Below are positions 4,007 through 50,145 of a stretch of 64,000 bases of DNA, piece after piece. A program made the position numbers and the translations under genes. Below the pieces are notes generated by a model that was not told where the DNA came from, did not search any database, and saw only the letters and a program-made list of their open reading frames with translations. This DNA comes from an uncultured Oscillospiraceae bacterium (GTDB lineage: Bacteria; Bacillota; Clostridia; Saccharofermentanales; Fastidiosipilaceae): positions 66,236-130,235 of the forward strand of contig CAZLEA010000001.1 in assembly GCA_964558445.1 (NCBI GenBank). Direction: 5' to 3'. Positions within the stretch are counted from its first letter, which is position 1. Each line of letters starts with the position of its first letter.

Positions 4007-7000
4007 TTAGTTCACAACCTTCAAAAGGCGAAGCGTACAGGCCTCACCGTTGATCGACCAATCGCGGCCTTCTTGATCTTCTCCGAGCGGCTCGACCGAC
4101 ACGGCGAGCACTTCGGCGGCAATCATGTCGCTCTGACGAGAGAAGACGGCGTCGAGCACTTCACTCGATCGATGATAGACCCGGATACGATCGACGACTT
4201 CGAAGTCGCTCTCCTTGCGCATCGTCTGGATCTTGGAGATGATTTCTCGTACATAGCCTTCTTCGATTAATTCGTCTGTCAGATGCAAGTCGATCGCAAC
4301 GGTGTAGTCACGATCTTGCTCCGTCTGGAAGCCTTCCACCTGCATTGTCTCGATCAGGAGATCATCTGCATGCAAACGCTCCATAGCACCGTCTAGCTCA
4401 ATCGTGATGAAGCCGTGCTCCTGGAGCTCAGCATAGCGGGCACGACCATCCAGACCGGCGAGCAGTTCGCCAAGCTTGGGCAAGTTCTTACCGAAGCGGC
4501 GGCCGAGCGTACGAAGTTGCGGCTTGAAGCGATAGTCTTGCAAGGCGCTGTCGTCCGAGATGAATTCAATCGACTTGATGTTCAGCTCATCCGTGATCAA
4601 GGCCGTGAACGTCTCGGGCAGCTCCACGGGCGACGCCACGAGCATGCGAGCGAGCGGCTGACGGTTCTTCATGGATGAGGCATTGCGCGCTGCACGTCCC
4701 ATACTGATGATCTCCAGCACGGCTGCCATGCGGGTTTCGAGCAAGTCGTCGACATAGCTGTGATCCGCCTCTGGGTAATCGCAGAAGTGTACGGACTCGG
4801 GCGCATCCGGCTCGGAGTTACGCACCAAATTCTGATAGATATCCTCCGTTACGAACGGCACGAAGGGAGCGGCCAAGAGCACGACCGTCTTCAAGACGGT
4901 ATAGAGCGTCATGTATGCCGAGATCTTGTCCTCTGTCATCTCCTCGCCCCAGTAGCGCTCGCGCCCTCGTCTGACGTACCAGTTCGATACGTCATCCAGG
5001 AAGTCAACCATCAGTCTACCTGCTGTCGAGATATCATACTTCTCAAGTAGTGAATCCACCTTCGCCACCAGCGTGTTCAAACGTGACAGCACCCAGCGAT
5101 CCATGACCGTCAGGCTCTCTGGCTTCAGGCTATGCTCGCTCGGATTGAAGCGATCGATATTGGCATAGAGCACATAGAAGGAATAGGTATTCCACAAGGT
5201 GCCCATGAACTTGCGCTGACCGTCACTGACCGCGGCATCCGAATAGCGACTCGGCAACCATGGCTGGCTGTTCGTATAGAAGTACCAACGCACGGCATCC
5301 GCACCCTGCTTACCCAGAGCGTCCCAGGGGTCAACGACGTTCCCCTTGTGCTTGCTCATCTTGATACCGTCCTTGTCCTGGACCAGACCCATGACGATAC
5401 AGTTCTGGAAGCTCGACTCATCGAAGAGGAGCGTCGCCACAGCCAGAAGCGAATAGAACCATCCGCGCGTTTGGTCCTGAGCCTCAGAGATGAACTGGGC
5501 CGGGAAGTGGGTTTCGAAATGTTCTTGGTTCTCAAAGGGATAGTGATACTGCGCAAACGGCATCGCACCCGAATCAAACCAAACGTCGATCACTTCGCTC
5601 ACACGGGTCATATTCTTCTGACAGATCGGGCAATTGACATGGACTTGATCAATGTAGGGCTTGTGCAGCTCGATCTCATCCGGGCAATTGTCGGACAAGG
5701 ATCTCAGCTCTTCGATCGAACCGATGACATGGACGTGTCCATCCTCGCAACGCCAGGCGGGCAGCGGCGTGCCCCAGTAGCGCTCACGGGTCAGACCCCA
5801 GTCAACCAGGTTCTCCAGGAAGTTACCCATACGCCCTTCCTTGACGTTGTCCGGGATCCAGTTGATGCTGCGGTTATTGCGAATCAATTGTTCCTTGACC
5901 GCCGTCGTGCGGATGAACCAGCTGTGACGCGCATAGTAGATCAAGGGCGTGTCGCAACGCCAGCAGTGCGGGTAGTTATGTTCGATCGGCAAGCGATACA
6001 TCAGCTTGCCCTCTGCTTCGAGCTTCGAGATGATCTTCGGATTCGCCTTCATCACGTTCATCTGTGCGAAATCGGTGACCGAATCCGGGAACTTACCGTC
6101 TTCTTGGACGAGCTGGACGAAGGGCAGGTCGTAGCGCTGACCGACCTTCGCGTCATCCTCACCGAAGGCAGGGGCGATATGTACGATGCCCGTACCGTCA
6201 TCTAGACTGACGAAGTTATCCGTAGTGACAAACCAGGCCTGCTTCTTGCTCTTAGAAACCGTGTCCAAGCTGTAATCGAAGAGCGGCTCGTAGGCCTTGT
6301 ACTCGAGGTCTGAGCCCTTATAGGTTTCCAGAACCGTGTGCTCTTCGCCGAGCACCGTATCCAGAAGTGCGGCAGCAACGTAATAACGATACTCCGTACC
6401 GTCTTCCATCTTCGATGCCAGCACGTAATCTGCCTTCGGATTCACACAGAGGGCGAGGTTTGACGGCAGGGTCCAAGGCGTGGTGGTCCAAGCAGCAAAA
6501 TAAGTATTCTCTTCATCCTTCACACGGAAGCGAACGAAGATCGAGGTCTCCTTCACATCCTTATAGCCTTGAGCAACTTCATGGCTTGATAGAGACGTGC
6601 CGCAGCGGGGGCAGTACGGGACAATCTTGTGGCCTTCATAGAGCAGCCCCTTCTTCCAGATCTCCTTGAGTGCCCACCAGACGGACTCAATGTAGTTATT
6701 CTCGTAGGTGACATAAGGATTGTCCATATCGGCCCAATAGCCGACGCGATCGGACATCTGTTCCCACTCATCCTTGTAGGTCCAGACACTCTCCTTACAC
6801 TTCTGTACGAATGCTTCGACACCATAGGCTTCGATCGCATCCTTACCATTGATGCCAAGCGCCTTCTCGACTTCGAGCTCAACCGGCAAACCGTGGGTAT
6901 CCCAACCGGCCTTGAACTCAACTTGGTAGCCCTTCATCGTACGATAACGAGGGATAACGTCCTTGATCGCTCGTGTCAGGATATGACCGATGTGCGGCTT

Positions 7001-7156
7001 ACCGTTGGCGGTCGGCGGTCCGTCAAACACGGTATAAACCGGTCCGCCCTCGCGGCGGCGCCAGGACTCCTTCATCGTGCCCTGTTCGGCCCACAAGGCC
7101 GCAACCGCTTCCTCGCGGCCGGTGAAATTCAGATCGTTTGCTACCTTCTCGTACAT
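4007..7156 (-). CDS. ileS: isoleucine--tRNA ligase, long (about 1049 aa) type-2-like form
   Basis: Class I motifs PPTANGKPHIGH and KMSKHKGN; editing-domain and anticodon-domain length fit IleRS. Start set at MYEKVANDLNF (7156) with GGAGG SD at 7161-7165. The ORF-track N-terminal extension to 7273 runs into the T-box leader. Confidence 0.93.
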   Translation of the reverse strand: MYEKVANDLNFTGREEAVAALWAEQGTMKESWRRREGGPVYTVFDGPPTANGKPHIGHILTRAIKDVIPRYRTMKGYQVEFKAGWDTHGLPVELEVEKALGINGKDAIEAYGVEAFVQKCKESVWTYKDEWEQMSDRVGYWADMDNPYVTYENNYIESVWWALKEIWKKGLLYEGHKIVPYCPRCGTSLSSHEVAQGYKDVKETSIFVRFRVKDEENTYFAAWTTTPWTLPSNLALCVNPKADYVLASKMEDGTEYRYYVAAALLDTVLGEEHTVLETYKGSDLEYKAYEPLFDYSLDTVSKSKKQAWFVTTDNFVSLDDGTGIVHIAPAFGEDDAKVGQRYDLPFVQLVQEDGKFPDSVTDFAQMNVMKANPKIISKLEAEGKLMYRLPIEHNYPHCWRCDTPLIYYARHSWFIRTTAVKEQLIRNNRSINWIPDNVKEGRMGNFLENLVDWGLTRERYWGTPLPAWRCEDGHVHVIGSIEELRSLSDNCPDEIELHKPYIDQVHVNCPICQKNMTRVSEVIDVWFDSGAMPFAQYHYPFENQEHFETHFPAQFISEAQDQTRGWFYSLLAVATLLFDESSFQNCIVMGLVQDKDGIKMSKHKGNVVDPWDALGKQGADAVRWYFYTNSQPWLPSRYSDAAVSDGQRKFMGTLWNTYSFYVLYANIDRFNPSEHSLKPESLTVMDRWVLSRLNTLVAKVDSLLEKYDISTAGRLMVDFLDDVSNWYVRRGRERYWGEEMTEDKISAYMTLYTVLKTVVLLAAPFVPFVTEDIYQNLVRNSEPDAPESVHFCDYPEADHSYVDDLLETRMAAVLEIISMGRAARNASSMKNRQPLARMLVASPVELPETFTALITDELNIKSIEFISDDSALQDYRFKPQLRTLGRRFGKNLPKLGELLAGLDGRARYAELQEHGFITIELDGAMERLHADDLLIETMQVEGFQTEQDRDYTVAIDLHLTDELIEEGYVREIISKIQTMRKESDFEVVDRIRVYHRSSEVLDAVFSRQSDMIAAEVLAVSVEPLGEDQEGRDWSINGEACTLRLLKVVN

Positions 7157-7189
7157 ATAGCCTCCATCGTTTCTCATTTGATTGCCTAC

Positions 7190-7385
7190 ATAATAAAAAA
7201 GCATCCCCAAAGGGACGCATCGCGTAACCACCCAATCTAGTGATAAGAATCGGTTCAATTCATCTGCACACAAGGTGCAAGCTCCCAGCTGATCCGTATA
7301 CTGCGATAATCTGTGTACCTCTCACCTACGTACACTCTCTGTTAGATCTCAGTTGCAGTTACCTGTCTGTTCATAGCTTCTGATA
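7190..7385 (-). promoter_or_regulatory. T-box riboswitch leader of ileS (probable Ile specifier)
   Basis: On the minus strand: AGAGAG and GGTGAGAG stem-I elements; T-box core ATTGGGTGGTTACGCG (7221-7236); then terminator GCGTCCC-TTTG-GGGATGC plus a T6 run (7195-7218). An ATC triplet (reverse complement of 7305-7307) sits on the 3' side of stem I. Confidence 0.8.
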
Positions 7386-7412
7386 TTTTAACATGTAGCC
7401 CGTATTTTGCAA
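7385..7412 (-). promoter_or_regulatory. sigma-70-type promoter of the ileS leader
   Basis: Minus strand has TTGCAA (7407-7412), a 16-nt spacer ending in TG, then TAAAAT (7385-7390). Confidence 0.5.
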
Positions 7413-7615
7413 GGTATGGTGACGAAACGCATCATAAATGGATAGAGCCCCCACCCCGCACAACGATCTGTGCCGGATGAGGCCTCGATATCTAAACGCT
7501 TCTCTCGTGTGACTAGAGTCGGTTCATATTCATGGCGCCAAACTTGTTCCGGGATAGTTTCCGCAAGTATATGCATCAAACAGCAGTTCGAACAAATCTG
7601 CCAAATAGAAATAGC

Positions 7616-7951
7616 CTATTCGGTCCCCAGAATCTTCGCAACATCCTTCGTCAGGATGTGATACTTCTGAAGATCGCTCTCTAGTTGCTTCCTACCTTCA
7701 TCGGTGATCGTGTAATAGCGTCTGAGCACACGCGCACCGGATGATTCTGTCCTGGATCGAACCAGGCCATGCTTCTCTAAGCGATGCAAGGCAGGATACA
7801 AAGCCCCCTCGGTCAAATGATACTGCTCCGAACCTCGCTCCGTTAGCGTATGAATAATCTTGAATCCATACATCTCATCCTCTTCGGATAGAAGTTTCAG
7901 AACTATCAGCTGAGTCAAGCCCTTCTTTAAATTTCCAGTTATGTCATACAT
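7616..7951 (-). CDS. PadR family transcriptional regulator
   Basis: LIVLKLLSEEDEMYGFKI...LTEGALYPALHRLEKHGLV is the PadR winged-helix signature; size 111 aa. Confidence 0.85.
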   Translation of the reverse strand: MYDITGNLKKGLTQLIVLKLLSEEDEMYGFKIIHTLTERGSEQYHLTEGALYPALHRLEKHGLVRSRTESSGARVLRRYYTITDEGRKQLESDLQKYHILTKDVAKILGTE

Positions 7952-8170
7952 TCTCCGACCCCTCCTTCACAGAATTTCTGATTACGAGTCCTGCGGAAAT
8001 TGACTGTCATCGACTCTCAATGGAGAAACTGCTGTCCTATAAGCTAATTATATAGGTCATCCTTAGCTGTTATGGATGCTTAGGTTACAAAAATCATGTC
8101 TTGGCAGGATTAACAATCATTCTCATTTCTATTTAGAGACAAATGAAACATAAGATAATTTGGGTTCAAA

Positions 8171-8203
8171 CAAGAAAAAGACCCGCAACATATCGTGCGA
8201 GTC
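8171..8203 (-). terminator. rho-independent terminator after spoVG
   Basis: Minus strand reads GACTCGCA-CGATATGT-TGCGGGTC followed by TTTTTCTTGTTTG. Confidence 0.6.
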
Positions 8204-8278
8204 TCTATGTGCCGGAGAAACCGAACACAGCTTCGAATGATTCAGTTGTTCCATCTATAGGCCATACAAAACCGGATC

Positions 8279-8674
8279 CTAGTCGTCACCCGACACCTCT
8301 AGCAAATCCTCTTCTTCGTCATAGAAGTCGTCCTCATCGTCGTAATCCTCATCCTCTTCATCGTAGTCATCGTCGTCATCTTCATCGTCTTCGTCATAGG
8401 AATCGTAATCTTCTTCGTCTTCTTGTTCTTCATCATACTTCGCCAAGATGAGCTCTGAGAGATAATTACGGAATTCGGTGCGAATCGGATGTGCGATGTC
8501 AATGAAGTTCCCGTTTGGCGTCTTGCGACTCGGCATAGCGATAAACAGACCTTGCGAGCTGGAGATGACCTTAATATCGTGAACAACGAAGACATTATCG
8601 AAGGTACATGACACAACAGCTTTTAACTTACCGGCATTACTCATGTTTCTGATTACTATATCAGTCAACTCCAT
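8279..8674 (-). CDS. spoVG: SpoVG family protein with a roughly 50-aa poly-acidic C-terminal tail
   Basis: MELTDIVIRNM..KLKAVVSCTFDNVFVVHDIKVI...FIAMPSRKTPNGNFIDIAHPI is a canonical SpoVG core. It is followed by EEQEDEEDYDSYDEDDEDDDDDYDEEDEDYDDEDDFYDEEED. Confidence 0.9.
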   Translation of the reverse strand: MELTDIVIRNMSNAGKLKAVVSCTFDNVFVVHDIKVISSSQGLFIAMPSRKTPNGNFIDIAHPIRTEFRNYLSELILAKYDEEQEDEEDYDSYDEDDEDDDDDYDEEDEDYDDEDDFYDEEEDLLEVSGDD

Positions 8675-8723
8675 ACCCCTACCACCTTTTCTATTTCAAT
8701 ATCGATAGAATGGAACTAAGTAA

Positions 8724-8752
8724 AGATTAATCAAATTGCACAAGGCTGTCAA
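8724..8752 (-). promoter_or_regulatory. putative sigma-70-type promoter of spoVG
   Basis: Minus strand has TTGACA (8747-8752), a 17-nt spacer, then TAATCT (8724-8729). Confidence 0.35.
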
Positions 8753-9068
8753 GGAAGATTGACATAATTTGATCAATACTAATCCTTTCTACTGTTTAGA
8801 ACGAATATACAAGATTATACGTCATGAATTACCACTAGGTGAACTGGCTAAACAGATCTGCAAATCACCTGGTTCAATCCGAGCCATATGATAATTGATC
8901 TGGATCAATTCGGTTTAGCTTATAATATTTTGACTAGTAAGTAGAATCACCAAGCAAGATTTCTTGGAACTTCTACTCATTTTATGCTCATTGCCCAAAA
9001 AGTAGATAAACAAGAAGATTCTGAATTGAAATTGTACAAACATCTCGTAAATGAGATCAGTCGAGGTA

Positions 9069-9112
9069 CAAAAAAAGAACATAGCCTGAGACAAATACTC
9101 AAACTATGCTCT
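9069..9112 (-). terminator. rho-independent terminator after tRNA-Pro
   Basis: Minus strand reads AGAGCATAG, a 19-nt loop, CTATGTTCT, then TTTTTTTG. Confidence 0.6.
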
Positions 9113-9115
9113 GAT

Positions 9116-9191
9116 TGGTCGGAGTGAGAAGACTTGAACTTCCGGCCTCTTGGTCCCGAACCAAGCGCTCTACCACCTGAGCCACACCCCG
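9116..9191 (-). tRNA. tRNA-Pro (anticodon CGG), CCA encoded
   Basis: The reverse complement CGGGGTGTGGCTCAGGTGGTAGAGCGCTTGGTTCGGGACCAAGAGGCCGGAAGTTCAAGTCTTCTCACTCCGACCA folds by hand into a 76-nt cloverleaf. Anticodon loop is TTCGGGA (CGG, G37); T-loop is TTCAAGT. Confidence 0.9.
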
Positions 9192-9202
9192 AAGACTTCA
9201 TA

Positions 9203-9230
9203 ATTCTATCATACTATTAGAAATAGTCAA
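9203..9230 (-). promoter_or_regulatory. putative promoter of tRNA-Pro
   Basis: Minus strand has TTGACT (9225-9230), a 16-nt spacer ending TGA, then TAGAAT (9203-9208), about 12 nt upstream of the tRNA 5' end. Confidence 0.5.
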
Positions 9231-9340
9231 TTATTCCGGTCTATACAATTCAGATCAAATTATCCTGCTACATTTGTCAGAATTATGTCTACAACGGGGG
9301 GAAGCACAAGTTGGGTCTACTCTAGGCAATCACATCTTAC

Positions 9341-10108
9341 TTAATTCGAGGGCGGCTGCGGCATCGTAGAGAAGTCCACTCCACTCGGTTCATTGGCCGT
9401 ACCGCCTTGGAGTTCGCCTGCTTCGTTATAGAAATTCAGTTTATCGGGCAGCTTGTAACCGTCCACGATGAAGAGGTATGCATCGTCATGTATCTCTGCA
9501 CGAATCTCTTCGCCATCGACGAAGAGGATGACATAATCAAGATCTACCTCGTGCGGCGTCTCCTCTCCTGTCAGCGCCTCATCCTTGACGATGCCCCAGA
9601 CGAAGGTCTGTTCATCTATGTAGTTGACTTGTAAGGAATAAAAGGGACTGGCTGGATATTCTCCATTGGCCAACCAGCGAATCTGTTCGTCCTCACCATG
9701 TTCGACAAGCAGGTAGTAGTCTGTATCCTTGTCCTTGAACTCAATATCTGCCGTGGTTCGGTAGATGGAGTATGGAGCGTCTGGGTGGCGGAATAACAAG
9801 GCCATCTGATCGTCTATGTCGGTCCACTCGCCGGGTGGCGTCAGTATATCCGTATCACTAGGGTCGGTCGATACAGAGGGTTCTGAAGTCTGTGAAGACG
9901 TCGGCACGGTCTCTGGAGAGGACGGCATCTCTGATTGAACGCTTGATTCAGAGGGCTGTGTCAGGTCTGCTGATGACGTTAACTCTGAGGTCGTGGAAGG
10001 GCTCGTCGTGGTCGTGTCTTGACAAGCAGCGAGCAAGAACATCAACTGAATCCCCACTACAAACAAAGCACTGTTTCGTAACGCCTTGGGAACTGAGAAC
10101 TTAAGCAT
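9341..10108 (-). CDS. hypothetical lipoprotein with a Ser/Thr/Pro-rich linker
   Basis: Signal peptide with lipobox (FLLAAC), then a roughly 70-aa S/T/P/E-rich low-complexity stretch and an acidic globular C-terminal domain. I recognise no family. Confidence 0.6.
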   Translation of the reverse strand: MLKFSVPKALRNSALFVVGIQLMFLLAACQDTTTTSPSTTSELTSSADLTQPSESSVQSEMPSSPETVPTSSQTSEPSVSTDPSDTDILTPPGEWTDIDDQMALLFRHPDAPYSIYRTTADIEFKDKDTDYYLLVEHGEDEQIRWLANGEYPASPFYSLQVNYIDEQTFVWGIVKDEALTGEETPHEVDLDYVILFVDGEEIRAEIHDDAYLFIVDGYKLPDKLNFYNEAGELQGGTANEPSGVDFSTMPQPPSN

Positions 10109-10287
10109 ATTAACACCTCCAAATTCAACAAATAGAAATTGTTCTCAAACGGCTATCTACCCTAATAATACATCTATTCAATCTACAACTCATTAACAAT
10201 TTGTGAATTAATTATCTGTTTTGAAGTGTCATTTCGCTATTTGTATCTACAAATAGCTCAGCAAGATGCCTATACCGATTGCACTTA

Positions 10288-11187
10288 CTACTCTTCTGCC
10301 ATGAACTCATCGAAGTAGGGGTAGAACTCACCGTCCAGGAAACGACCCTCTTCTATCATCTGGCGAATCGTTGTTTGATCTGCCCACATCGCATCTGTTG
10401 TCTCGTTTAGCTGGAAGCGAAGGTCGGCGAGCTCGCCTGCCCAAGGGAAGACCCAGACATCTTGGATCCAGCCACCGCGCTCCTCACGCCAGCGAAATAG
10501 GCGTTTGAACAAGCGTCCTTCTGCCGGATCGAGCTCGATGCCAAGCTCTTCTCTGGTCTCTCGTAGCGCTGCCCCGAGGCTGTCATCGCCTGCGACCGCA
10601 ACGCCTCCGGTCGTCTCCCAGAAGCCGTCACTGCTAGATCCTCTGCCCAGGGCACGCCTGTTGATGAGCCATCTCCCCTTCCCATCGGTCTTCCAGACAT
10701 TTACAACCAGGTGATAGAGGCCGTCATCGATTCTTCTGCCACGCTCGGCATAGAGCCCCGTGAGACGCCCCTCGCGGTCATAGAGATCCATAATCTCAAG
10801 CGGGCGATACAGTAGCTTCGTGTAGGGCTTGCCATCCAATACCTGTTCTTCCTTAGCGGGCACGAAACCATAGCTTAAGAAGAAGGCAGTTGATACTTGA
10901 TCAGGCAAGACGAAGAGTTCATCTATACCTCGAAGTTTCAGCGCACATACAATGCGGTCCATCAGCTTCTCGGCTAAGCGATCGTCATAGTCACGGTGGA
11001 TGCTGAGGCTAGAGATACGACCGTCTCCATGTCCGGTGACAAGTCCGCAGAGCTTGTCGGACGAATACGCACCAAACAAGACGGCGTCTTCTTGCGCTGT
11101 GGCATCCGAGGATGGCAGATAGCAACGATCCAACCCCTCAGACTCCGGATTCGTTTGTAGGTCGATCTGTTTGATGAGTAGATTCAT
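10288..11187 (-). CDS. GNAT-like N-terminal domain fused to a NUDIX hydrolase domain
   Basis: Nudix box GGVAVAGDDSLGAALRETREELGI in the C-terminal half. The N-terminal roughly 125 aa has GNAT-like topology (LSIHRDY...LFVLPDQVSTAFFLSYGF) but lacks the Q/RxxGxG/A loop. Confidence 0.7.
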   Translation of the reverse strand: MNLLIKQIDLQTNPESEGLDRCYLPSSDATAQEDAVLFGAYSSDKLCGLVTGHGDGRISSLSIHRDYDDRLAEKLMDRIVCALKLRGIDELFVLPDQVSTAFFLSYGFVPAKEEQVLDGKPYTKLLYRPLEIMDLYDREGRLTGLYAERGRRIDDGLYHLVVNVWKTDGKGRWLINRRALGRGSSSDGFWETTGGVAVAGDDSLGAALRETREELGIELDPAEGRLFKRLFRWREERGGWIQDVWVFPWAGELADLRFQLNETTDAMWADQTTIRQMIEEGRFLDGEFYPYFDEFMAEE

Positions 11188-45670: not shown

Positions 45671-46756
45671 CTATATCTCAAATTCGTTCAGTTCGGATAT
45701 CGCTTGGCGTATAAACCCAATCTGAGAGATCACCTTACTGTAAGCCATGCGTCTCGGCCCGATAACACCGATCGATCCGCTGATCTGGCCGGGTAAGCGA
45801 CAGGTCGCAGCGACGAAGCTGCAGTCCTTGAACTCTTCTTGTTGCAGTTCCTGACCGATGCGAATCATGAAGCGTGTCGGTTCGTTTACGCTAAGCGATC
45901 CCGAAACCGCTTCTTCCTCACGGTCGATCACGGTCGGATCCGTCTCCTCCATCATGCCGATGATCAAACCATCGTCACGTAGGGCGTGGAGGACGGCACC
46001 CGCGCGCTCCGTATCCCGGAACTCGGGATGAGAGAACAGCTTGGGCATGCCATCGATATAAGTCTCTAGGTTATCCGCCTGCTTGATCGCACTATAAGCC
46101 TCGTAGGCAACTTGGTTCAGCAGACTCTCGGGCAGATCGCTATTCTGCATACTGCTCTGAACCGTGACCAGTGTGATGTCCTGTAAGCGAACACCGTCCA
46201 GTCGCTGCTCGATCGCAAGCGACAAATCGCTTAGTTGCTGCGGGTTTAGTATGTCCGGCAAACGAACGATCTTATCCTTCACAAGTCCTGCGGACAAGAC
46301 GATAACCACCAAGACCTTACCTGGCTCGATCATCAGCATCTTGAGTTGCTTCAAGCTGCTGGCAGCCAAGCGCGGTGAGACGGCAAGTGAGGTGTAGCCC
46401 GTACCCTCGGACAAGATCCAGGAGACTTGCTTCAGCAGCTCCTTCATCTCATCTGCGTGCGTACTCAGGTTATGGCGGATCGCAAGGCGGTTAGCCTCTT
46501 GTATCGGTAGGATCGGCATCAACTCCTCGACATACTTACGATAACCGAGGTCCGAGGGCACTCTGCCCGCCGATGTATGCGGCTGTTCGAGATAACCCAA
46601 TTGCTCGAGTTCTGCCATCGTGTTACGAATAGTCGCCGAGCTGACCGGCAAATGATACTTATCGACCAGGGTCTTGGATGCCACAGGTTCCGCAGTCTCA
46701 ATATAGTCTTCTACAATCGTGCGAAGCACATCTCTCTTACGCTGATCCAGTGTCAT
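45671..46756 (-). CDS. hrcA: heat-inducible transcription repressor HrcA
   Basis: LDQRKRDVLRTIVEDYIETAEPVASKTL...SSATIRN.MAELE..GYL.QPHTSAGR.P is the HrcA signature. Start set at MTLDQRK. Confidence 0.93.
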   Translation of the reverse strand: MTLDQRKRDVLRTIVEDYIETAEPVASKTLVDKYHLPVSSATIRNTMAELEQLGYLEQPHTSAGRVPSDLGYRKYVEELMPILPIQEANRLAIRHNLSTHADEMKELLKQVSWILSEGTGYTSLAVSPRLAASSLKQLKMLMIEPGKVLVVIVLSAGLVKDKIVRLPDILNPQQLSDLSLAIEQRLDGVRLQDITLVTVQSSMQNSDLPESLLNQVAYEAYSAIKQADNLETYIDGMPKLFSHPEFRDTERAGAVLHALRDDGLIIGMMEETDPTVIDREEEAVSGSLSVNEPTRFMIRIGQELQQEEFKDCSFVAATCRLPGQISGSIGVIGPRRMAYSKVISQIGFIRQAISELNEFEI

Positions 46757-46788: not shown

Positions 46789-46815
46789 TTAGCACTCAAA
46801 TCTCCTGAGTGCTAA
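46789..46815 (-). promoter_or_regulatory. CIRCE operator (HrcA binding site)
   Basis: Perfect TTAGCACTC-N9-GAGTGCTAA inverted repeat 33 nt upstream of the hrcA ATG. Confidence 0.95.
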
Positions 46816-46819
46816 ACCC

Positions 46820-46848
46820 ATTCTATTATCATTTACGGGGAATGTCAA
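46820..46848 (-). promoter_or_regulatory. sigma-70-type promoter of the hrcA-grpE-dnaK-dnaJ operon
   Basis: Minus strand has TTGACA (46843-46848), a 17-nt spacer, then TAGAAT (46820-46825), immediately upstream of CIRCE. Confidence 0.7.
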
Positions 46849-46922: not shown

Positions 46923-48110
46923 CTACACGAACTCCATAAATACGAAATTGGCCAGGTCTATGCCGTGCCTCGTTAGGCGATAGTGCTCCCTTCGATCCGC
47001 TCGCTCACCCGCTTGCGATTCGATCAATCCCGCCTCTTCGAGCTGGGCGAGGCTATGGAGCACTCTAGCCGGCGGCTCCTCACCGAAACGCCTGCGAAAC
47101 GCCTCGAGATCAAGCCCGTCCAGCAGGCGAAATCCGAGCAAGAAGAATTCGAGCATCTCCTCATCTCGATCGATCACGTCTGCCTGCACGACCGCTCGAA
47201 ACGCCTCCGTCTCGCCGTCGCCATAAATCTGGATATACTCCTCCAGATCATCCGTATTCAGATAGCGTGTCCCGCCGAGGTATGCGGCAGCCGCAAGCCC
47301 GCAAGCCGCGTACTGCTCTCCCTGCCAATAGACCAAGTTATGGCGCCCTTCATAACCCGGAAGCCCGGAGTTACTGACTTCATAATGATGGAAGCCTGCT
47401 TCACCCAACAGCGCTCTTGCGGCCTCGTACATCTCACGTTCCGTATCTTCGTTTGGTAGATCATCCATCTGACCTGCTTGCTGCTGAGCATAAAACGGCG
47501 TACCCTCCTCGATAATCAGGGAATAAAACGAAACGTTCTTAAGATCCAAGGATAACAAGAGTGAGACGCTGTCTATTACATCGTCCATCGTCTGGCCCGG
47601 CAAGCCGATCATGAGATCAACCGAGATGTTCTCGAAACCGGCTTGTTTGGCCGCCGCGATGCTTAGCAAGAAATCATCTAGCTTATGGATGCGGCCGATA
47701 CGGCGAAGCAAGTGATCCCTACTGCTCTGCAAACCGACGCTCAGGCGATTGACACCGGCACGATAGAGCATGGCCAAGCCCTCGCTATCGGCTGATCCGG
47801 GGTTCGCTTCGACGGTGATCTCGGGGTTGTCTTCGAAGCCCCAGAGAGAGCGTACGAGATCAACCACGCGCGTGATCGCCTCTGTCGGGACATAGGTAGG
47901 CGTGCCGCCACCGAAGTAGAGCGTTCTTAGCGGTACAAGCTCGCCTCTCTTCTCCAGATAAGCCGCCTGAGCACGGAGCTCGTTGAACAGGGCATCGAAA
48001 TAATCAAGCTGCCTTGCTTCTTGTCCGATATAAGAGACAAAATCGCAGTATTGGCACTTCGCCTGACAAAACGGTACATGTATATATAGGGATGTGGGAG
48101 CCAGAGTCAT
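46923..48110 (-). CDS. hemW: radical SAM family heme chaperone HemW (HemN-like)
   Basis: LYIHVPFCQAKCQYCDF radical-SAM CxxxCxxC motif and a HemN_C-like C-terminus. Start set at MTLAPTSLY (48110). The ORF-track extension to 48317 overlaps the upstream gene in another frame. Confidence 0.88.
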   Translation of the reverse strand: MTLAPTSLYIHVPFCQAKCQYCDFVSYIGQEARQLDYFDALFNELRAQAAYLEKRGELVPLRTLYFGGGTPTYVPTEAITRVVDLVRSLWGFEDNPEITVEANPGSADSEGLAMLYRAGVNRLSVGLQSSRDHLLRRIGRIHKLDDFLLSIAAAKQAGFENISVDLMIGLPGQTMDDVIDSVSLLLSLDLKNVSFYSLIIEEGTPFYAQQQAGQMDDLPNEDTEREMYEAARALLGEAGFHHYEVSNSGLPGYEGRHNLVYWQGEQYAACGLAAAAYLGGTRYLNTDDLEEYIQIYGDGETEAFRAVVQADVIDRDEEMLEFFLLGFRLLDGLDLEAFRRRFGEEPPARVLHSLAQLEEAGLIESQAGERADRREHYRLTRHGIDLANFVFMEFV

Positions 48111-48115
48111 CTTCT

Positions 48116-48787
48116 TTATCTCGTTTCCAATTGATCCAAGCATTTTAGCAGATAATCGTGGAACCGGTGGAAGCTGGGTGAGACATTTCGTTTCGCATCG
48201 AGCTGTGGCGAGATCGCCTCTGCCCACTTGTATTTGTACGTACCGACTGCAGGATAGCCTGCTTGAATCAAGCGCTTGGCGCGATGACCCATAATCGCCC
48301 GGGCGAGCACTTCCCATGTACCGACGATCGAATCTTGTTCATAGCGATCCAAGACCGCTTGGTCGATCTCGGGATATGCAGCCAAGAGAGCTACACGATC
48401 TGCCAGGAGCCACGACTCCAATTCTTCGACGGCAACACCAATCACGACAGGCAGATCCCCCGCATATTCCGCACGTAAGCGAATCAAGTCGCGGTAGATC
48501 AGAGCCGGCAGATGATCGTCACTGTCCAGAACAACAATCACCAGATTACGCTCCGAAGGCGAATAGGCCGAGCGATAGACGCGTAAACGGGCAGGGAGTA
48601 ATTGCAGGAGGCCGGAGGCAAACCGCTTGGGGCTCTCATCCGGGTTCTCCGGAATCTTACCTGCGCCGCGATGTCGTCGCAGTTCATACGTCCAAGAGAC
48701 AGATCGTGTACTCAGTATCGACCGCATGAGTCCATCCACAATCTTGGCACCGGACGAATCTTCGACCAAGACCTCAATATGATGCAT
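48116..48787 (-). CDS. Toprim-like small protein (DUF4276/RloB-like), predicted nuclease partner of the upstream ATPase
   Basis: 223 aa. N-terminal strand HHIEVLVEDSSG, acidic cluster VIVVLDSDD (residues 83-91), and VAVEELESWLLAD (119-130). GGAG SD inside the end of the ATPase gene, with a 4-nt spacer. I recognise no housekeeping family. Confidence 0.55.
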   Translation of the reverse strand: MHHIEVLVEDSSGAKIVDGLMRSILSTRSVSWTYELRRHRGAGKIPENPDESPKRFASGLLQLLPARLRVYRSAYSPSERNLVIVVLDSDDHLPALIYRDLIRLRAEYAGDLPVVIGVAVEELESWLLADRVALLAAYPEIDQAVLDRYEQDSIVGTWEVLARAIMGHRAKRLIQAGYPAVGTYKYKWAEAISPQLDAKRNVSPSFHRFHDYLLKCLDQLETR

Positions 48788-48791
48788 AAGC

Positions 48792-50039
48792 CTACTCCCC
48801 TTCTAGATCACGAATATCCAGGTGGCCGGAGTACCAGAGTGCACTCATGCCGACCCCTTCATCATAGAAGGCCTTGACGAGTGGTAAGTCCTCCGCATTG
48901 ATCGCATGACTGCCTCGCTCGGGGATCTCGCTGCGATGCATCACCCAGACCTCTCGGGGTGCGAGGCTCTCCAGTAGGTTCTGGCTGTGTGTACTGAGGA
49001 AGATCTGCGTCTCGTGTTCGTTCCAGATATAATCGCGCATCGCCTCGGCAAGTTTATCGATCATATTGTAATAGAGTCCGTGGTCCGGATTCTCGATAAA
49101 CAGCAGAGACCTGGGTTCCGGATCCATCAAGAGTAGAAACAGGGCGAGCAGTTTGTACTCACCGCTACCGAGCGCATCGCTCTGAACGGCCTTCGTCAGA
49201 TCGCCGCGATAAGATAGCTTCTCGACCAGCATCTGCATCGTCTGACTGTAGCGTACGGGGTCCAGCCTCTTCATGTACGCCAGGACGTTTGCGATATTGC
49301 TGCCTTCTTCGTTGATGTGGTGGTGTTCACCGTTACCCAAATCCAATTGCAAGCGATGCTTGTCACGCAAACGATGTAATCCCTCCTCTTCTCCGAGATC
49401 CGTGAAACGACTGAAATACCAAGAGGAGATCAAGTCGTAGAGTGCACAGATCTCCTTGTACTCCTTCAAGCGACCATAACTTGCGAGTGCGGGTCGCTTG
49501 CGATCGCTCAACTCCGTTTGGCGCATCTCTCCCTCATAGCGGACCGTGCCTCTGCCGTTCTCCAACCGGAGGTAAGTCGTAAGCTCCGGTCTCGGGCCGA
49601 CCAGCATCGCATCCGTACGCAGACGCTCTGCCTGTGCCTCGGAGACAGCTAGTGCCTCCACCCGTTCGGCACAGACCCTAGGACGACCGTGCTTATCCGC
49701 CGAAATAGCAAGCTTATAGATGAGTATCGCCATCAGGGGACGGTCGAACAAAACGAGTTCGAAGCTCATGTTCTCCTTGCAGTGGCGCGATCGAAGGTGA
49801 GTGAAGCCGATATTGGCCCCCTTGGTCGATGCAGCGACAAGGTCTGCTGTCAGAGCGCTTCTTAGGAATTCCAGACTGCGAAACAAGGACGTCTTACCGA
49901 CTGCATTCTCTCCGATAACGGCGTTTAGTTCTCCGATACAACGAAGTTCGGTCTCATCTCCCGCCAGATCCTCGGCTTGCAAACCGATTCTCAGGTCTCG
50001 CAGCACTTCGAAGTTTGTAATTCGTAGACCAAGTAGCAT
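48792..50039 (-). CDS. ABC/SMC-type (AAA_15/AAA_21-like) ATPase with an atypical Walker B
   Basis: Walker A GENAVGKTS (49887-49913), signature-like LGSGEYKLLAL, Walker-B-like LLFIENPDHGL (49077-49106) and H-loop IFLSTHS. Start set at MLLGLRITNF (50039) with a GAGGAG SD. Confidence 0.7.
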   Translation of the reverse strand: MLLGLRITNFEVLRDLRIGLQAEDLAGDETELRCIGELNAVIGENAVGKTSLFRSLEFLRSALTADLVAASTKGANIGFTHLRSRHCKENMSFELVLFDRPLMAILIYKLAISADKHGRPRVCAERVEALAVSEAQAERLRTDAMLVGPRPELTTYLRLENGRGTVRYEGEMRQTELSDRKRPALASYGRLKEYKEICALYDLISSWYFSRFTDLGEEEGLHRLRDKHRLQLDLGNGEHHHINEEGSNIANVLAYMKRLDPVRYSQTMQMLVEKLSYRGDLTKAVQSDALGSGEYKLLALFLLLMDPEPRSLLFIENPDHGLYYNMIDKLAEAMRDYIWNEHETQIFLSTHSQNLLESLAPREVWVMHRSEIPERGSHAINAEDLPLVKAFYDEGVGMSALWYSGHLDIRDLEGE

Positions 50040-50057
50040 GATCTTACTCCTCATAAG

Positions 50058-50101
50058 TCAAGGGCTTGCGGCGATACATACATCTCGCAACAAGCCCTTG
50101 A
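50058..50101 (-). other. strong stem-loop between the SPFH gene and the ATPase gene (no U-tract)
   Basis: 11-bp perfect arms TCAAGGGCTTG / CAAGCCCTTGA plus an inner TGCG/CGCA pairing. On the transcript it is followed directly by the SD and ATG of the ATPase gene. Confidence 0.6.
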
Positions 50102-50145
50102 TGGTTCAAGCACGAAGCATACGCTTGGCTTGTCTAAGTTCTCGA

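What the first reader, a model, noticed from the sequence alone, without database searches (positions are those of the whole stretch)
48116..50054. ATPase + Toprim-like gene pair wedged upstream of hemW-hrcA-grpE-dnaK-dnaJ: candidate OLD/AbiL/PARIS-class conflict (anti-phage) system
Two translationally coupled minus-strand genes have no housekeeping assignment. They are 48792..50039 (415 aa) and 48116..48787 (223 aa), separated by a 4-nt spacer with the SD inside the upstream gene. Gene 1 has the SMC/RecF/OLD-type ABC ATPase layout: Walker A GENAVGKTS, a long insert, signature-like LGSGEYKLLAL, a Walker-B-like motif, and H-loop FLSTHS. This is the ATPase class used by OLD nucleases, Gabija GajA, Septu PtuA, PARIS AriA and AbiLi. 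Gene 2 has the order of acidic motifs expected for a Toprim-fold nuclease: IEVLVEDSSG, then VVLDSDD, then EELESWLLAD. Its overall layout recalls the uncharacterised DUF4276 family and RloB/AbiLii. In Firmicutes hemW is usually preceded by lepA. An ATPase-nuclease pair here therefore looks like an accessory insertion in a core heat-shock neighbourhood. I cannot place it in a named defence family from sequence alone.
Basis: partly seen in the sequence, partly recalled or inferred. Interest (0 to 1): 0.8.

Follow-up and report, generated by a model that had tools for sequence, protein, structure and literature searches.

The report
Defence-type ATPase–nuclease pair fixed beside hemW
The two genes belong to a known candidate anti-phage family (PADLOC HEC-01: an ABC ATPase plus a DUF4276 nuclease), but in this group of Clostridia they are an ancient, vertically inherited fixture fused into an operon with the housekeeping gene hemW, and the ATPase has lost its catalytic residues, so they look like a defence module that has been tamed or repurposed.

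Summary
In detail: genes A (48792-50039, 415 aa) and B (48116-48787, 223 aa) exist, 4 nt apart, and B ends 5 nt before hemW. A is an AAA_21/AAA_15 ABC ATPase, B is a DUF4276 protein, and both match PADLOC HEC-01A/B at about 1e-64 to 1e-66. HEC-01 is a published candidate defence system. The 'accessory insertion' reading is wrong. In about 30 loci forming an apparently order-level clade (Saccharofermentanales/Fastidiosipilaceae-like Clostridia, judged from record names and DnaK 70-92% identity), the pair sits directly upstream of hemW, often with a 4-nt overlap. It co-diverges with DnaK and HrcA, has host-like GC, and is monophyletic. The 69 more distant homologues lack hemW, and the 25 with long enough flanks have essentially unique contexts, including the moron slot of a lambdoid prophage. 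B's acidic active-site residues are invariant in all 99 sequences. A differs between groups: mobile copies keep the catalytic Glu (55/55) and nearly always the Q and signature motifs (54/55 each). hemW-linked copies have Q-to-H in 25/25 and lost the catalytic Glu in 21/25, at least three times independently; the window has IEN in place of DE. Most likely this is a fixed HEC-01 derivative in which a non-hydrolysing, nucleotide-binding ATPase gates an intact nuclease. Immune or exapted is unresolved. It is a new variant of a known kind.

The parts
48792..50039 (-). Gene A: ABC ATPase of the HEC-01A / AAA_21-AAA_15 class, 415 aa, with degenerate catalytic motifs
   Evidence: Pfam AAA_21 6.1e-20 and AAA_15 1.2e-12. 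PADLOC HEC-01A PDLC04182 1.6e-66. A profile of A hits the PDB entries for EttA, SMC1A, SufC, OLD (6p74), AriA (8ux9) and GajA.
49887..49913 (-). Walker A motif GENAVGKTS (aa 43-51), intact
   Evidence: GxxxxGK[ST] is conserved in all hemW-linked and mobile homologues that have an N-terminus. Coordinates.
49296..49325 (-). HHHINEEGSN (aa 239-248): the Q-loop-like motif with Gln replaced by His
   Evidence: Mobile homologues have Q[RK]HLN in 54 of 55 loci. hemW-linked homologues have H in 25 of 25. The Q-loop assignment is inferred from its position about 50 aa before the signature motif and has not been verified structurally.
49152..49172 (-). Signature-like motif LGSGEYK (aa 290-296), partly degenerate
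   Evidence: It aligns to LSGGE of EttA and SMC1A. Mobile homologues have SDGT in 54 of 55 loci. The hemW-linked clade is variable, for example ESPDK or SSPSK.
49077..49106 (-). Degenerate Walker B LLFIENPDHG (aa 312-321): Glu316 replaces the Walker B Asp and Asn317 replaces the catalytic Glu
   Evidence: HMM alignment to LLLLDEP of EttA and VLDEID of SMC1A. The residue at this position is E in 55 of 55 mobile homologues and N/T/A/S/Q in 21 of 25 hemW-linked ones.
48984..48998 (-). H-loop LSTHS (aa 348-352), intact
   Evidence: The His is conserved in all homologues and aligns to the THD H-loop of EttA.
48116..48787 (-). Gene B: DUF4276 / HEC-01B protein, 223 aa, predicted metal-dependent Toprim-like nuclease with a C-terminal helical domain
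   Evidence: PADLOC HEC-01B PDLC04205 6.1e-64. Pfam DUF4276 1.2e-5 for the window protein, and 38 of 38 homologues hit it. AF2 model has pLDDT 95.1 with a beta-alpha-beta-alpha-beta-alpha-beta core. The top BFVD match is an RloB-like protein.
48749..48778 (-). B motif 1, IEVLVEDSSG (E5, E9, D10), at the end of strand beta1
   Evidence: E9 is invariant in all 99 sequences, and E5 and D10 nearly so. Strand 2-8 in the model.
48515..48535 (-). B motif 2, VVLDSDD (D88-x-D90), at the end of strand beta3: the DxD motif
   Evidence: D88 and D90 are invariant in 99 of 99 sequences. Strand 80-88 in the model.
48398..48430 (-). B motif 3, VEELESWLLAD (E121, E122, E124, W126, D130), after strand beta4
   Evidence: All five residues are invariant in 99 of 99 sequences.
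46923..48110 (-). hemW (radical-SAM haem chaperone family), the constant downstream partner; it starts 5 nt after B's stop
   Evidence: NCBIfam TIGR00539 HemW 291.7 bits against a cutoff of 205.4. hemW is immediately downstream of B in 29 of the 30 fetched loci of the clade (L008 is the exception) and in the window itself, with a 4-nt overlap in L003, L014, L015, L086, L088 and L091 among the first loci examined.
50058..50101 (-). Strong stem-loop between SPFH and A; likely terminator of the NfeD-SPFH unit and upstream boundary of the A-B-hemW unit
   Evidence: Folding gives -39.6 kcal/mol with z = -3.95. Relatives L001 and L005 have a different sequence but an equally strong hairpin at the same place.
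46789..46848 (-). Perfect CIRCE operator (46789-46815) and a sigma-70-like promoter (46848-46820) in front of hrcA; downstream boundary of the A-B-hemW unit
   Evidence: CIRCE matches with 0 mismatches and is the only hit in the window. The promoter is TTGACA-17-TAGAAT, matching 11 of 12 positions.

Best explanation
A and B are a two-gene module of the PADLOC HEC-01 family: an OLD/PARIS-class ABC ATPase plus a DUF4276, Toprim-like, metal-dependent nuclease. The module was acquired once by an ancestor of a Saccharofermentanales/Fastidiosipilaceae-like clade. It inserted directly upstream of hemW, the slot that lepA occupies in other Firmicutes, and has since been inherited vertically as an A-B-hemW operon that is translationally coupled. 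(Shown: family membership, single origin, vertical inheritance, tight junctions.) After fixation the ATPase lost the residues needed for ATP hydrolysis: Q-to-H in the whole clade, then repeated loss of the catalytic Glu and of the signature motif. It kept Walker A and the H-loop. The nuclease kept every acidic active-site residue. (Shown: the substitution pattern. Inferred: loss of hydrolysis with retention of nucleotide binding.) The most likely mechanism is that A is a nucleotide-binding but non-hydrolysing regulator or scaffold. It holds the B nuclease in check and releases or activates it on a signal such as nucleotide depletion or a foreign protein. B then cuts nucleic acid. This resembles GajA, whose ATPase-like domain gates its Toprim domain without hydrolysis, and AriA, which sequesters AriB in PARIS. 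(All of this step is inferred.) I lean slightly towards a chromosomally fixed, still conflict-related guard rather than a purely housekeeping enzyme, but the data do not settle that question.
For: Family membership: PADLOC HEC-01A 1.6e-66 and HEC-01B 6.1e-64; AAA_21 above cutoff and DUF4276; HEC-01 is described as an ABC ATPase plus TOPRIM protein. Fixation and vertical descent: identical synteny in L001, L005 and L003/L004 with B 68/62/57%, hemW 68/57/44% and DnaK 92/86/77% identity; A-B-hemW also occurs in a second lineage with different upstream genes (recG-rsmD-coaD); hemW is directly downstream in every sampled homologue with B at least 42% identical except L008, and in none of the 69 below that; Spearman rho against DnaK identity is 0.75 for A and 0.68 for B, compared with 0.74 for hrcA; GC is 0.54 against 0.535 for the window; pair-bearing genomes are monophyletic on an hrcA tree, with the empty-site genome L017 in the sister lineage. 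Mobile relatives: loci share flank homologues with only 0-2 of 24 others, and one copy sits between the Q antiterminator and the lysis genes of a lambdoid prophage. ATPase decay: Q-to-H in 25/25 and catalytic Glu lost in 21/25 hemW-linked copies; in the 55 mobile copies the catalytic Glu is intact in 55/55 and the Q and signature motifs in 54/55 each; at least three independent losses on the A+B tree; motif identity confirmed by alignment to EttA and SMC1A. Nuclease intact: E9, D88, D90, E121, E122 and E124 are invariant in 99/99 sequences, and the model has pLDDT 95. Precedents: GajA has no ATPase activity and nucleotide binding gates its Toprim domain; AriA sequesters AriB, and E393A is the ATPase-dead mutant.
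Against: There are no experimental data for this lineage. For HEC-01 as a whole, one representative gave no defence in E. coli and another protected against at least one of T4, T5 and T7. Vertical retention across such a deep (apparently order-level) clade and coupling to a housekeeping gene are atypical for immune systems and argue equally well for exaptation. Loss of hydrolysis is inferred from sequence only. Glu316 and Asp319 remain and might support slow hydrolysis, and four hemW-linked loci keep the catalytic Glu. The Q-loop assignment is positional. The Toprim fold was not confirmed against solved structures: Foldseek on the PDB gave no hit below E 0.01 and hhalign against P2 Old gave 0.5% probability. 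The only positive structural signal is a weak RloB-like match in BFVD with TM 0.37. An A-B physical interaction was not modelled.
Confidence: 0.55

Rival explanations
1. Exaptation. The pair no longer serves immunity. It has been recruited to a cellular, hemW-linked role, for example RNA or DNA processing or quality control that acts together with the radical-SAM protein HemW, in the operon slot that the translation factor LepA occupies elsewhere.
For: The conserved unit is A-B-hemW, not A-B-hrcA. The trio stays together when upstream genes differ and when 4-7 kb separate hemW from hrcA. Stop/start overlaps with hemW recur. B is on average more conserved than hemW itself, 51% against 44% pairwise identity. 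The change in selective regime on A coincides exactly with fixation. lepA abuts hemW in outgroups, so the pair has taken over a conserved coupled position. Toprim enzymes include housekeeping RNases and repair factors such as RNase M5 and RecR; this last point rests on my own knowledge.
Against: No known function links HemW to nucleases. In L008 about 6 kb separates B from hemW, so the linkage is not obligatory. The sister-lineage genome L017 lives with SPFH-hemW and no pair. A evolves fast (43% mean identity), particularly in its insert region, as sensor proteins in arms races do. The closest relatives are mobile, prophage-borne modules.
Confidence: 0.3
2. One reading: a conventional, recently acquired accessory anti-phage system of the OLD/AbiL/PARIS class with a working ATPase, wedged into a core neighbourhood.
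For: Strong HEC-01 HMM hits. ABC ATPase plus Toprim-like architecture. One HEC-01 representative is reported to protect E. coli. Mobile homologues behave this way.
Against: The same position is found in about 30 loci of a deep clade, with co-divergence with DnaK/HrcA, host-like GC and monophyly. Catalytic Glu and Q-loop-like Gln are replaced. No defence genes, integrases or other mobile-element genes flank the pair; the neighbours are SPFH, NfeD, an M28 peptidase, GalT and hemW.
Confidence: 0.05
3. Entrenched relic. The pair is retained only because hemW expression now depends on transcription and translation through A-B (operon entrenchment), or because it behaves as an addictive toxin-antidote pair, with no organismal function.
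For: Tight or overlapping junctions mean a deletion would disturb hemW translation. No separate hemW promoter was detected between B and hemW, where the spacer is 5 nt. ATPase motifs are decaying.
Against: Both ORFs are intact in every locus. B's 15 or more invariant residues, including all acidic active-site residues, are preserved across DnaK divergence down to about 72%. A keeps Walker A, the H-loop and a strongly conserved C-terminal EGxGxxxLWYSGHLD motif. Entrenchment alone does not maintain active sites over this timescale.
Confidence: 0.08

Closest known systems
PADLOC HEC-01 (Hma-embedded candidate 01; Payne et al. 2024, bioRxiv 10.1101/2024.01.29.577857)
   Same: It is a two-gene module with an ABC ATPase (HEC-01A) followed by a small TOPRIM-like DUF4276 protein (HEC-01B). 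Both window proteins match the family HMMs at about 1e-64 to 1e-66 over nearly full length for B. The conserved metal-binding acidic residues are reported for HEC-01B.
   Different: HEC-01 was defined from copies embedded in other defence systems and behaves as a mobile accessory module. Here the pair is fixed, vertically inherited and coupled to hemW, with no defence or mobile genes around it. The ATPase has lost the Q-loop-like Gln and the catalytic Glu, which the mobile copies keep in 54/55 and 55/55 loci respectively.
Gabija GajA (fused ATPase-like plus Toprim endonuclease)
   Same: An OLD-class ABC ATPase domain controls a Toprim nuclease. GajA has no ATPase activity, and nucleotide binding rather than hydrolysis gates cleavage. 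That is the behaviour predicted here from the degenerate motifs.
   Different: GajA is a single fused polypeptide partnered with the UvrD-like helicase GajB. Here the ATPase and nuclease are separate proteins, the nuclease is DUF4276 rather than Toprim_OLD, and no helicase is present. The PDB profile hit to GajA is weak, at 2.5e-3.
PARIS (AriA ABC ATPase plus AriB DUF4435 Toprim nuclease)
   Same: It is a split two-gene ATPase/Toprim system in which the ATPase scaffold sequesters the nuclease and releases it on sensing a trigger. AriA and DUF4276-associated ATPases are placed on the same AAA15/21 tree. There are partial HMM hits to AriA at 2.3e-19 for the C-terminal region only.
   Different: AriA needs ATP binding, and its ATPase activity is required for defence; E393A is the engineered dead mutant. 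The window protein carries the natural equivalent, N317. B does not match AriB/DUF4435. PARIS is typically carried on phages or satellites.
MADS Mad3/Mad4 and Menshen NsnC DUF4276 domains
   Same: Mad4 is a DUF4276 homologue paired with the ATPase Mad3. Menshen NsnC variants carry DUF4276 as a predicted Toprim effector domain.
   Different: The NCBIfam MAD3 score is 47 bits against a cutoff of 420. No methyltransferase or other MADS or Menshen genes are nearby.
AbiL (AbiLi ATPase plus AbiLii/RloB)
   Same: It is a two-gene pair of an AAA_21-type ATPase and a small Toprim-like protein. The AbiLi HMM hit is 3.1e-18. The best viral structural match of B is an RloB-like protein.
   Different: B gives no RloB Pfam hit. 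The structural match is weak, with TM 0.37. AbiL is plasmid-borne.

Membership tests
PADLOC HEC-01 | A protein matching a HEC-01A (ABC ATPase) HMM | tested here: met
   PDLC04182 at 1.6e-66 and PDLC04181 at 1.7e-46.
PADLOC HEC-01 | An adjacent, co-oriented protein matching a HEC-01B (TOPRIM-like) HMM | tested here: met
   PDLC04205 at 6.1e-64, covering residues 3-215 of 223. The spacer between A and B is 4 nt.
PADLOC HEC-01 | Accessory behaviour: embedded in or near other defence systems, or in a variable context | tested here: not met
   The flanks are SPFH/NfeD and hemW-hrcA-grpE-dnaK. The context is conserved in about 30 loci. Mobile relatives do show variable context.
PADLOC HEC-01 | Demonstrated anti-phage activity | not testable with these tools
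   The literature is mixed. There was no activity in Payne et al. and protection against at least one of T4, T5 and T7 in the cold-seep study. Nothing has been tested for this lineage.
Pfam DUF4276 (PF14103) | Score at or above the gathering threshold | tested here: inconclusive
   The window protein scores 26.1 bits against a cutoff of 30.2, but the match is full length (profile positions 1-191 of 192) at E 1.2e-5. All 38 aligned homologues hit DUF4276, the best at 1.2e-9. Many homologues carry a precomputed PF14103 hit or the NCBI name 'DUF4276 family protein'.
Toprim superfamily | A conserved Glu after strand beta1 and a DxD motif after strand beta3, in a beta-alpha-repeat core | tested here: met
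   E9 follows strand 2-8 and D88-S-D90 ends strand 80-88. Both are invariant in 99 of 99 sequences.
Toprim superfamily | Significant fold or profile similarity to an established Toprim domain | tested here: inconclusive
   Foldseek against the PDB gave no hit below E 0.01 with the full-length or core model. hhalign against P2 Old gave 0.5% probability. The top BFVD hit is an RloB-like protein with prob 0.98, E 1.4e-3 and TM 0.37, followed by weak topoisomerase and primase hits. Two papers assert the relationship.
ABC ATPase (AAA_21/AAA_15, OLD-like class) | Pfam match above threshold, plus Walker A and H-loop | tested here: met
   AAA_21 at 72.9 bits and AAA_15 at 48.6 bits. GENAVGKTS and LSTHS are present.
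ABC ATPase (AAA_21/AAA_15, OLD-like class) | Catalytically competent site: Walker B acidic residue plus catalytic Glu, signature motif and Q-loop Gln | tested here: not met
   I-E-N-P aligns to L-D-E-P. The Q position is His and the signature is LGSGE rather than SDGT or LSGGE. The protein is a family member by descent but probably not a working hydrolase.
PARIS (AriA/AriB) | An AriB-type DUF4435 Toprim partner and a full-length AriA match | tested here: not met
   B has no DUF4435 or AriB hit. AriA HMMs match only A residues 280-356. The PDB AriA hit is 1.3e-4 and partial.
MADS (Mad3/Mad4) | A MAD3 equivalog score and the accompanying methyltransferase and other mad genes | tested here: not met
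   NF047739 scores 47.2 bits against a cutoff of 420. No such neighbours are present.
HrcA/CIRCE heat-shock regulon | A CIRCE operator upstream of the transcription unit | tested here: not met
   The only CIRCE in the window is at 46789-46815, between hemW and hrcA and downstream of the pair.

The most novel reading that the evidence does not exclude
A mobile ATPase-nuclease immune module (HEC-01) has been domesticated. Since the origin of a Saccharofermentanales-level clade it has functioned as a core-genome partner of the radical-SAM protein HemW. The ATPase has been converted into a non-hydrolysing regulatory subunit and the Toprim-like nuclease does a cellular job such as RNA/DNA processing or a stress-triggered shut-off. 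To my knowledge, this would be the first documented exaptation of an OLD/PARIS-class defence pair, and it would give a new handle on the still unclear role of HemW in anaerobes.
Probability: 0.3. Interest if true: 0.8.

Novelty: new variant of a known kind. Interest (0 to 1): 0.6.

Why it matters
Defence systems are usually studied as fast-turnover accessory genes. This lineage is a natural experiment. The same two-gene module exists in a mobile form, which has variable contexts, sits in a prophage moron slot and keeps an intact ATPase. It also exists in a fixed form, which has been inherited vertically across a deep, apparently order-level clade, is translationally coupled to hemW, and has lost its ATPase catalytic residues at least three times independently while the nuclease site stays untouched.

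This makes two questions directly testable. First, can an ABC ATPase/Toprim pair work with nucleotide binding alone, as proposed for GajA? Second, what happens to an immune module when it becomes a permanent resident, that is, long-term immunity or exaptation? The finding also warns annotation pipelines that a PADLOC or DefenseFinder 'HEC-01' call in these genomes marks a core-genome locus and not an island. Finally, it links an unexplained partner to HemW, whose role in haem-poor anaerobes is unsettled.

Tried and rejected
1. Foldseek of the full-length B model (pLDDT 95) against the PDB gave no hit below E 0.01 and nothing Toprim in the top 50. Repeating it with the N-terminal core only (pLDDT 90) gave only generic Rossmann-like folds.

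2. Sequence and profile searches of the PDB found nothing for A as a single sequence and only noise for the B profile.

3. hhalign of the B alignment against P2 Old gave 0.5% probability. Only the VLVEDSSG / LLVEGKTE stretch aligned.

4. MADS membership was rejected: MAD3 scores 47 bits against a cutoff of 420. PARIS membership was rejected because there is no AriB/DUF4435 match.

5. Heat-shock regulation of the pair was rejected. The only CIRCE is downstream of hemW.

6. A sigma-70 promoter directly upstream of A was not found by the consensus scan, so the promoter of A-B-hemW in the window remains unidentified.

7. Recent horizontal acquisition was rejected on composition and co-divergence.

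8. Three relatives (L010, L012, L018) that nest within the pair-bearing clade have neither hemW nor the pair within 7-10 kb upstream of hrcA. Comparison with L011 shows a variable insertion zone there. They are therefore undetermined and are not counted as losses.

10. dN/dS was not computed. Synonymous sites are saturated at 57-68% protein identity, and the near-identical copies (97-100%) are uninformative.


Full report
**1. Observation**

- Gene A runs 48792-50039 (415 aa). A GAGGAG ribosome-binding site 7 nt upstream of the ATG at 50039 favours this start over the ATG at 50054.
- Gene B runs 48116-48787 (223 aa). It starts 4 nt after A's stop, with a GGGGAG Shine-Dalgarno sequence inside A.
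- B's TAA stop lies only 5 nt before the hemW ATG at 48110.
- All quoted motifs are present.
- Both are real genes. AAA_21 scores 72.9 bits against a cutoff of 27 and AAA_15 scores 48.6 bits. DUF4276 matches B over its full length at E 1.2e-5, slightly below Pfam's cutoff.

**2. What family it is**

PADLOC's library places both proteins in the same named candidate system. HEC-01A (PDLC04182) hits at 1.6e-66 and HEC-01B (PDLC04205) at 6.1e-64.
- HEC-01 was defined by Payne et al. (2024) as an ABC ATPase plus a TOPRIM-like protein found embedded in Hma defence systems. Their representative gave no protection in E. coli.
- A 2026 cold-seep study reports that another HEC-01 representative protected against at least one of T4, T5 and T7.
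- A 2025 analysis of Menshen classifies DUF4276, together with RloB, as a new Toprim-superfamily member and notes Mad4 as a DUF4276 homologue.
- All 38 aligned B homologues hit DUF4276.
- The pair is not MADS: MAD3 scores 47 bits against a cutoff of 420.
- It is not PARIS: there is no AriB/DUF4435 match, and AriA matches only partially.

The family already has a name and a thin experimental record.

**3. The surprise: it is not an accessory insertion**

The closest B homologues (57-68% identity) come from Oscillospiraceae/Fastidiosipilaceae genomes. They sit in the same place: GalT, M28 peptidase, (NfeD, SPFH), A, B, hemW, hrcA, grpE, dnaK, dnaJ, prmA. The clade's order-level rank is my estimate from record names and DnaK/HrcA divergence; no GTDB classification was run.

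Identity of the pair falls in step with its neighbours across three relatives:

| Gene | Identity in three relatives (%) |
|---|---|
| B | 68 / 62 / 57 |
| hemW | 68 / 57 / 44 |
| A | 61 / 49 / 33 |
| hrcA | 77 / 71 / 53 |
| DnaK | 92 / 86 / 77 |

- A scan of species-representative genomes with HrcA named the relatives: Fastidiosipilaceae, Saccharofermentans, Mageeibacillus and 'Ruminococcaceae YRB3002'. The trio appears in L009, L011, L013, L014 and L015 (L008 has A-B with hemW ~6 kb away). More than 60 more distant Firmicutes and other phyla lack it.
- A second lineage has B 46-52% identical, different upstream genes (recG-rsmD-coaD) and a clpP between grpE and dnaK. It still has A-B attached to hemW, even where 4 kb separate hemW from hrcA.
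- With 86 further loci from metagenomes and viral contigs the split is clean. Every sampled B at least 42% identical has hemW immediately downstream; the one exception is L008, with a 6-kb insert. Every B below that identity has no hemW, and A is directly upstream of B wherever the contig reaches far enough.
- The B-hemW junction is a 4-nt overlap in L003, L014, L015, L086, L088 and L091 (several later metagenome loci show the same), and 3-5 nt in the window, L005 and L013.
- Pairwise identities of A and B correlate with those of DnaK as well as hrcA's do (rho 0.75, 0.68 and 0.74). B is on average more conserved than hemW (51% against 44%). GC matches the host.
- On an hrcA tree the pair-bearing genomes are monophyletic. 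L017, which has SPFH directly followed by hemW, belongs to the sister lineage.
- In outgroups a LepA equivalog abuts hemW. The pair therefore occupies the slot lepA holds elsewhere.

The simplest history is one ancient insertion between SPFH and hemW, followed by vertical inheritance.

**4. The mobile relatives**

- The 25 non-hemW loci with long enough flanks share a flank homologue with only 0-2 of the other 24. hemW-linked loci share flank homologues with 13-14 of 14 others, except L099 with 7.
- One copy (L176) lies between the Q antiterminator and the holin-endolysin-spanin cassette of a lambdoid prophage, with terminase downstream. This is the classic moron position.
- In Variovorax the pair sits between glnS and a pseudouridine synthase, with Mrr and Fic genes nearby.
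- The subfamily is small: 186 clusters at E 1e-10 or better among 1.84 billion representatives.

**5. The proteins**

B:
- AlphaFold gives a confident model (pLDDT 95.1, pTM 0.91). It has a beta-alpha-beta-alpha-beta-alpha-beta core followed by a helical domain.
- Glu9 follows beta1 and Asp88-x-Asp90 ends beta3, as in Toprim domains. A further E121-E122-x-E124 cluster follows beta4.
- These and about ten other residues are invariant in all 99 sequences, both hemW-linked and mobile.
- My direct fold tests were weak. Nothing in the PDB scored below E 0.01 for the full or core model, and hhalign against P2 Old gave 0.5% probability.
- The best BFVD hit is an RloB-like protein (prob 0.98, E 1.4e-3, TM 0.37), followed by a topoisomerase and a primase.
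- I therefore treat 'Toprim-like nuclease' as supported by motifs, topology and two papers, but not proven here.

A:
- A profile of the family aligns to solved ABC ATPases. In those alignments the window's I-E-N-P corresponds to L-D-E-P (the Walker B Asp plus the catalytic Glu), LGSGE corresponds to the LSGGE signature, and STHS corresponds to the H-loop.
- Among mobile homologues the Walker B reads IEEPEN in 55 of 55, the signature SDGT in 54 of 55, and an upstream Q[RK]HLN motif carries Gln in 54 of 55. That motif sits where a Q-loop would be.
- Among 25 hemW-linked homologues the Gln is His in all 25. The catalytic Glu is replaced in 21 (N, T, A, S or Q), and the signature is often unrecognisable. 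The Walker A lysine and the H-loop histidine are always kept.
- On an A+B tree the Q-to-H change is ancestral to the clade. The Glu was then lost at least three times independently.
- This is the signature of relaxed selection on hydrolysis while nucleotide binding and the rest of the fold stay under constraint.

**6. Transcription unit**

- A perfect CIRCE operator and an 11-of-12 sigma-70 promoter lie between hemW and hrcA. The heat-shock operon is therefore separate, and the pair is not under CIRCE control.
- A strong hairpin (z = -3.95) follows SPFH. Equivalent hairpins with different sequences occur in L001 and L005, which suggests a terminator.
- A-B-hemW is thus probably its own unit. 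I did not find its promoter.

**7. Mechanism**

Shown:
- HEC-01 membership.
- Single origin and vertical descent.
- Coupling to hemW.
- An intact nuclease site.
- Degenerate ATPase motifs.

Inferred:
- A binds nucleotide but hydrolyses it poorly or not at all, and acts as a gate or scaffold for B.
- B is released or activated by a signal and cuts nucleic acid.

Precedents:
- GajA has no ATPase activity, and nucleotide binding gates its Toprim domain.
- AriA sequesters AriB, and the E393A mutant, which is equivalent to N317 here, is ATPase-dead.

The data do not decide whether the module still guards against mobile elements or has been exapted to a hemW-linked cellular role. I put these at about 0.55 (including the shared mechanistic core) and 0.3.

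**8. Novelty and verdict**

The family is known, so this is not categorically new. The hemW-fixed, ATPase-degenerate lineage is a new variant. The literature held here mentions DUF4276 in only four papers (three distinct works), and none of the passages I read connects it with hemW.

The variant is worth pursuing as a natural case of a defence-type module turning into a permanent genomic resident. Interest is 0.6.

Noticed in passing
window 46789-46848: A perfect CIRCE operator (TTAGCACTC-N9-GAGTGCTAA) sits directly downstream of a near-consensus sigma-70 promoter (TTGACA-17-TAGAAT), in front of hrcA. The longest hrcA ORF (GTG at 46795) overlaps CIRCE, so the true start is probably the ATG at 46756.
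   Followed up: partly
window 50058-50101 (and a smaller hairpin at 50107-50132): A 16-bp interrupted stem-loop lies between SPFH and gene A and ends 6 nt before A's RBS. It has no U-tract. L001 and L005 have hairpins at the same position that are equally strong but unrelated in sequence. It may be a terminator, an attenuator or an mRNA-stabilising element.
   Followed up: partly
L019, L020, L022, L028, L037, L063 (outgroup Firmicutes); window 46923-48110: In outgroups lepA (EF4) abuts hemW with a 0-10 nt spacing. In the pair-bearing clade lepA is absent from the 10 kb upstream of the pair and A-B has taken over that tightly coupled position. Where lepA went in these genomes was not determined.
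   Followed up: partly
L086-L091; also L008, L010, L011, L013, L018: The Saccharofermentans-like sister lineage has a clpP gene inserted between grpE and dnaK in the heat-shock operon. The window's lineage does not.
   Followed up: no
L011 2710-9977; L088 9850-14009; L010 1037-10000; L008 1583-7551: The hemW-hrcA interval is a variable insertion zone (0.1 to more than 9 kb) in the Saccharofermentans-like lineage. In L011 it contains three paralogous gene copies. In L008 related cargo lies between B and hemW instead, which is the only case where B and hemW are separated.
   Followed up: partly
L176 3679-5657 (IMG/VR UViG_2561511173_000001): An ATPase-intact copy of the pair sits between a Q-like antiterminator and the holin-endolysin-spanin cassette of a lambdoid prophage, with small terminase downstream. 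This is the classic moron slot.
   Followed up: yes
window 46923-48317: The mechanical longest ORF for hemW (464 aa) extends about 200 nt into gene B in another frame. The real start is the ATG at 48110 (395 aa), which agrees with the HemW model and the orthologues.
   Followed up: yes
L090 (Variovorax paradoxus CP123990) 6751-10645; L001/L003 1-2227: The Variovorax pair lies directly downstream of glnS. In the Clostridia clade a class-I Glu/Gln-tRNA synthetase gene lies about 8-10 kb upstream of the pair. This is probably coincidence.
   Followed up: no
P0014, P0015, P0035, P0041 (B homologues, 250-273 aa): Some hemW-clade B proteins carry low-complexity C-terminal extensions of 30-50 aa or N-terminal extensions that the window protein lacks. 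It is unclear whether these are real or start/stop miscalls.
   Followed up: no
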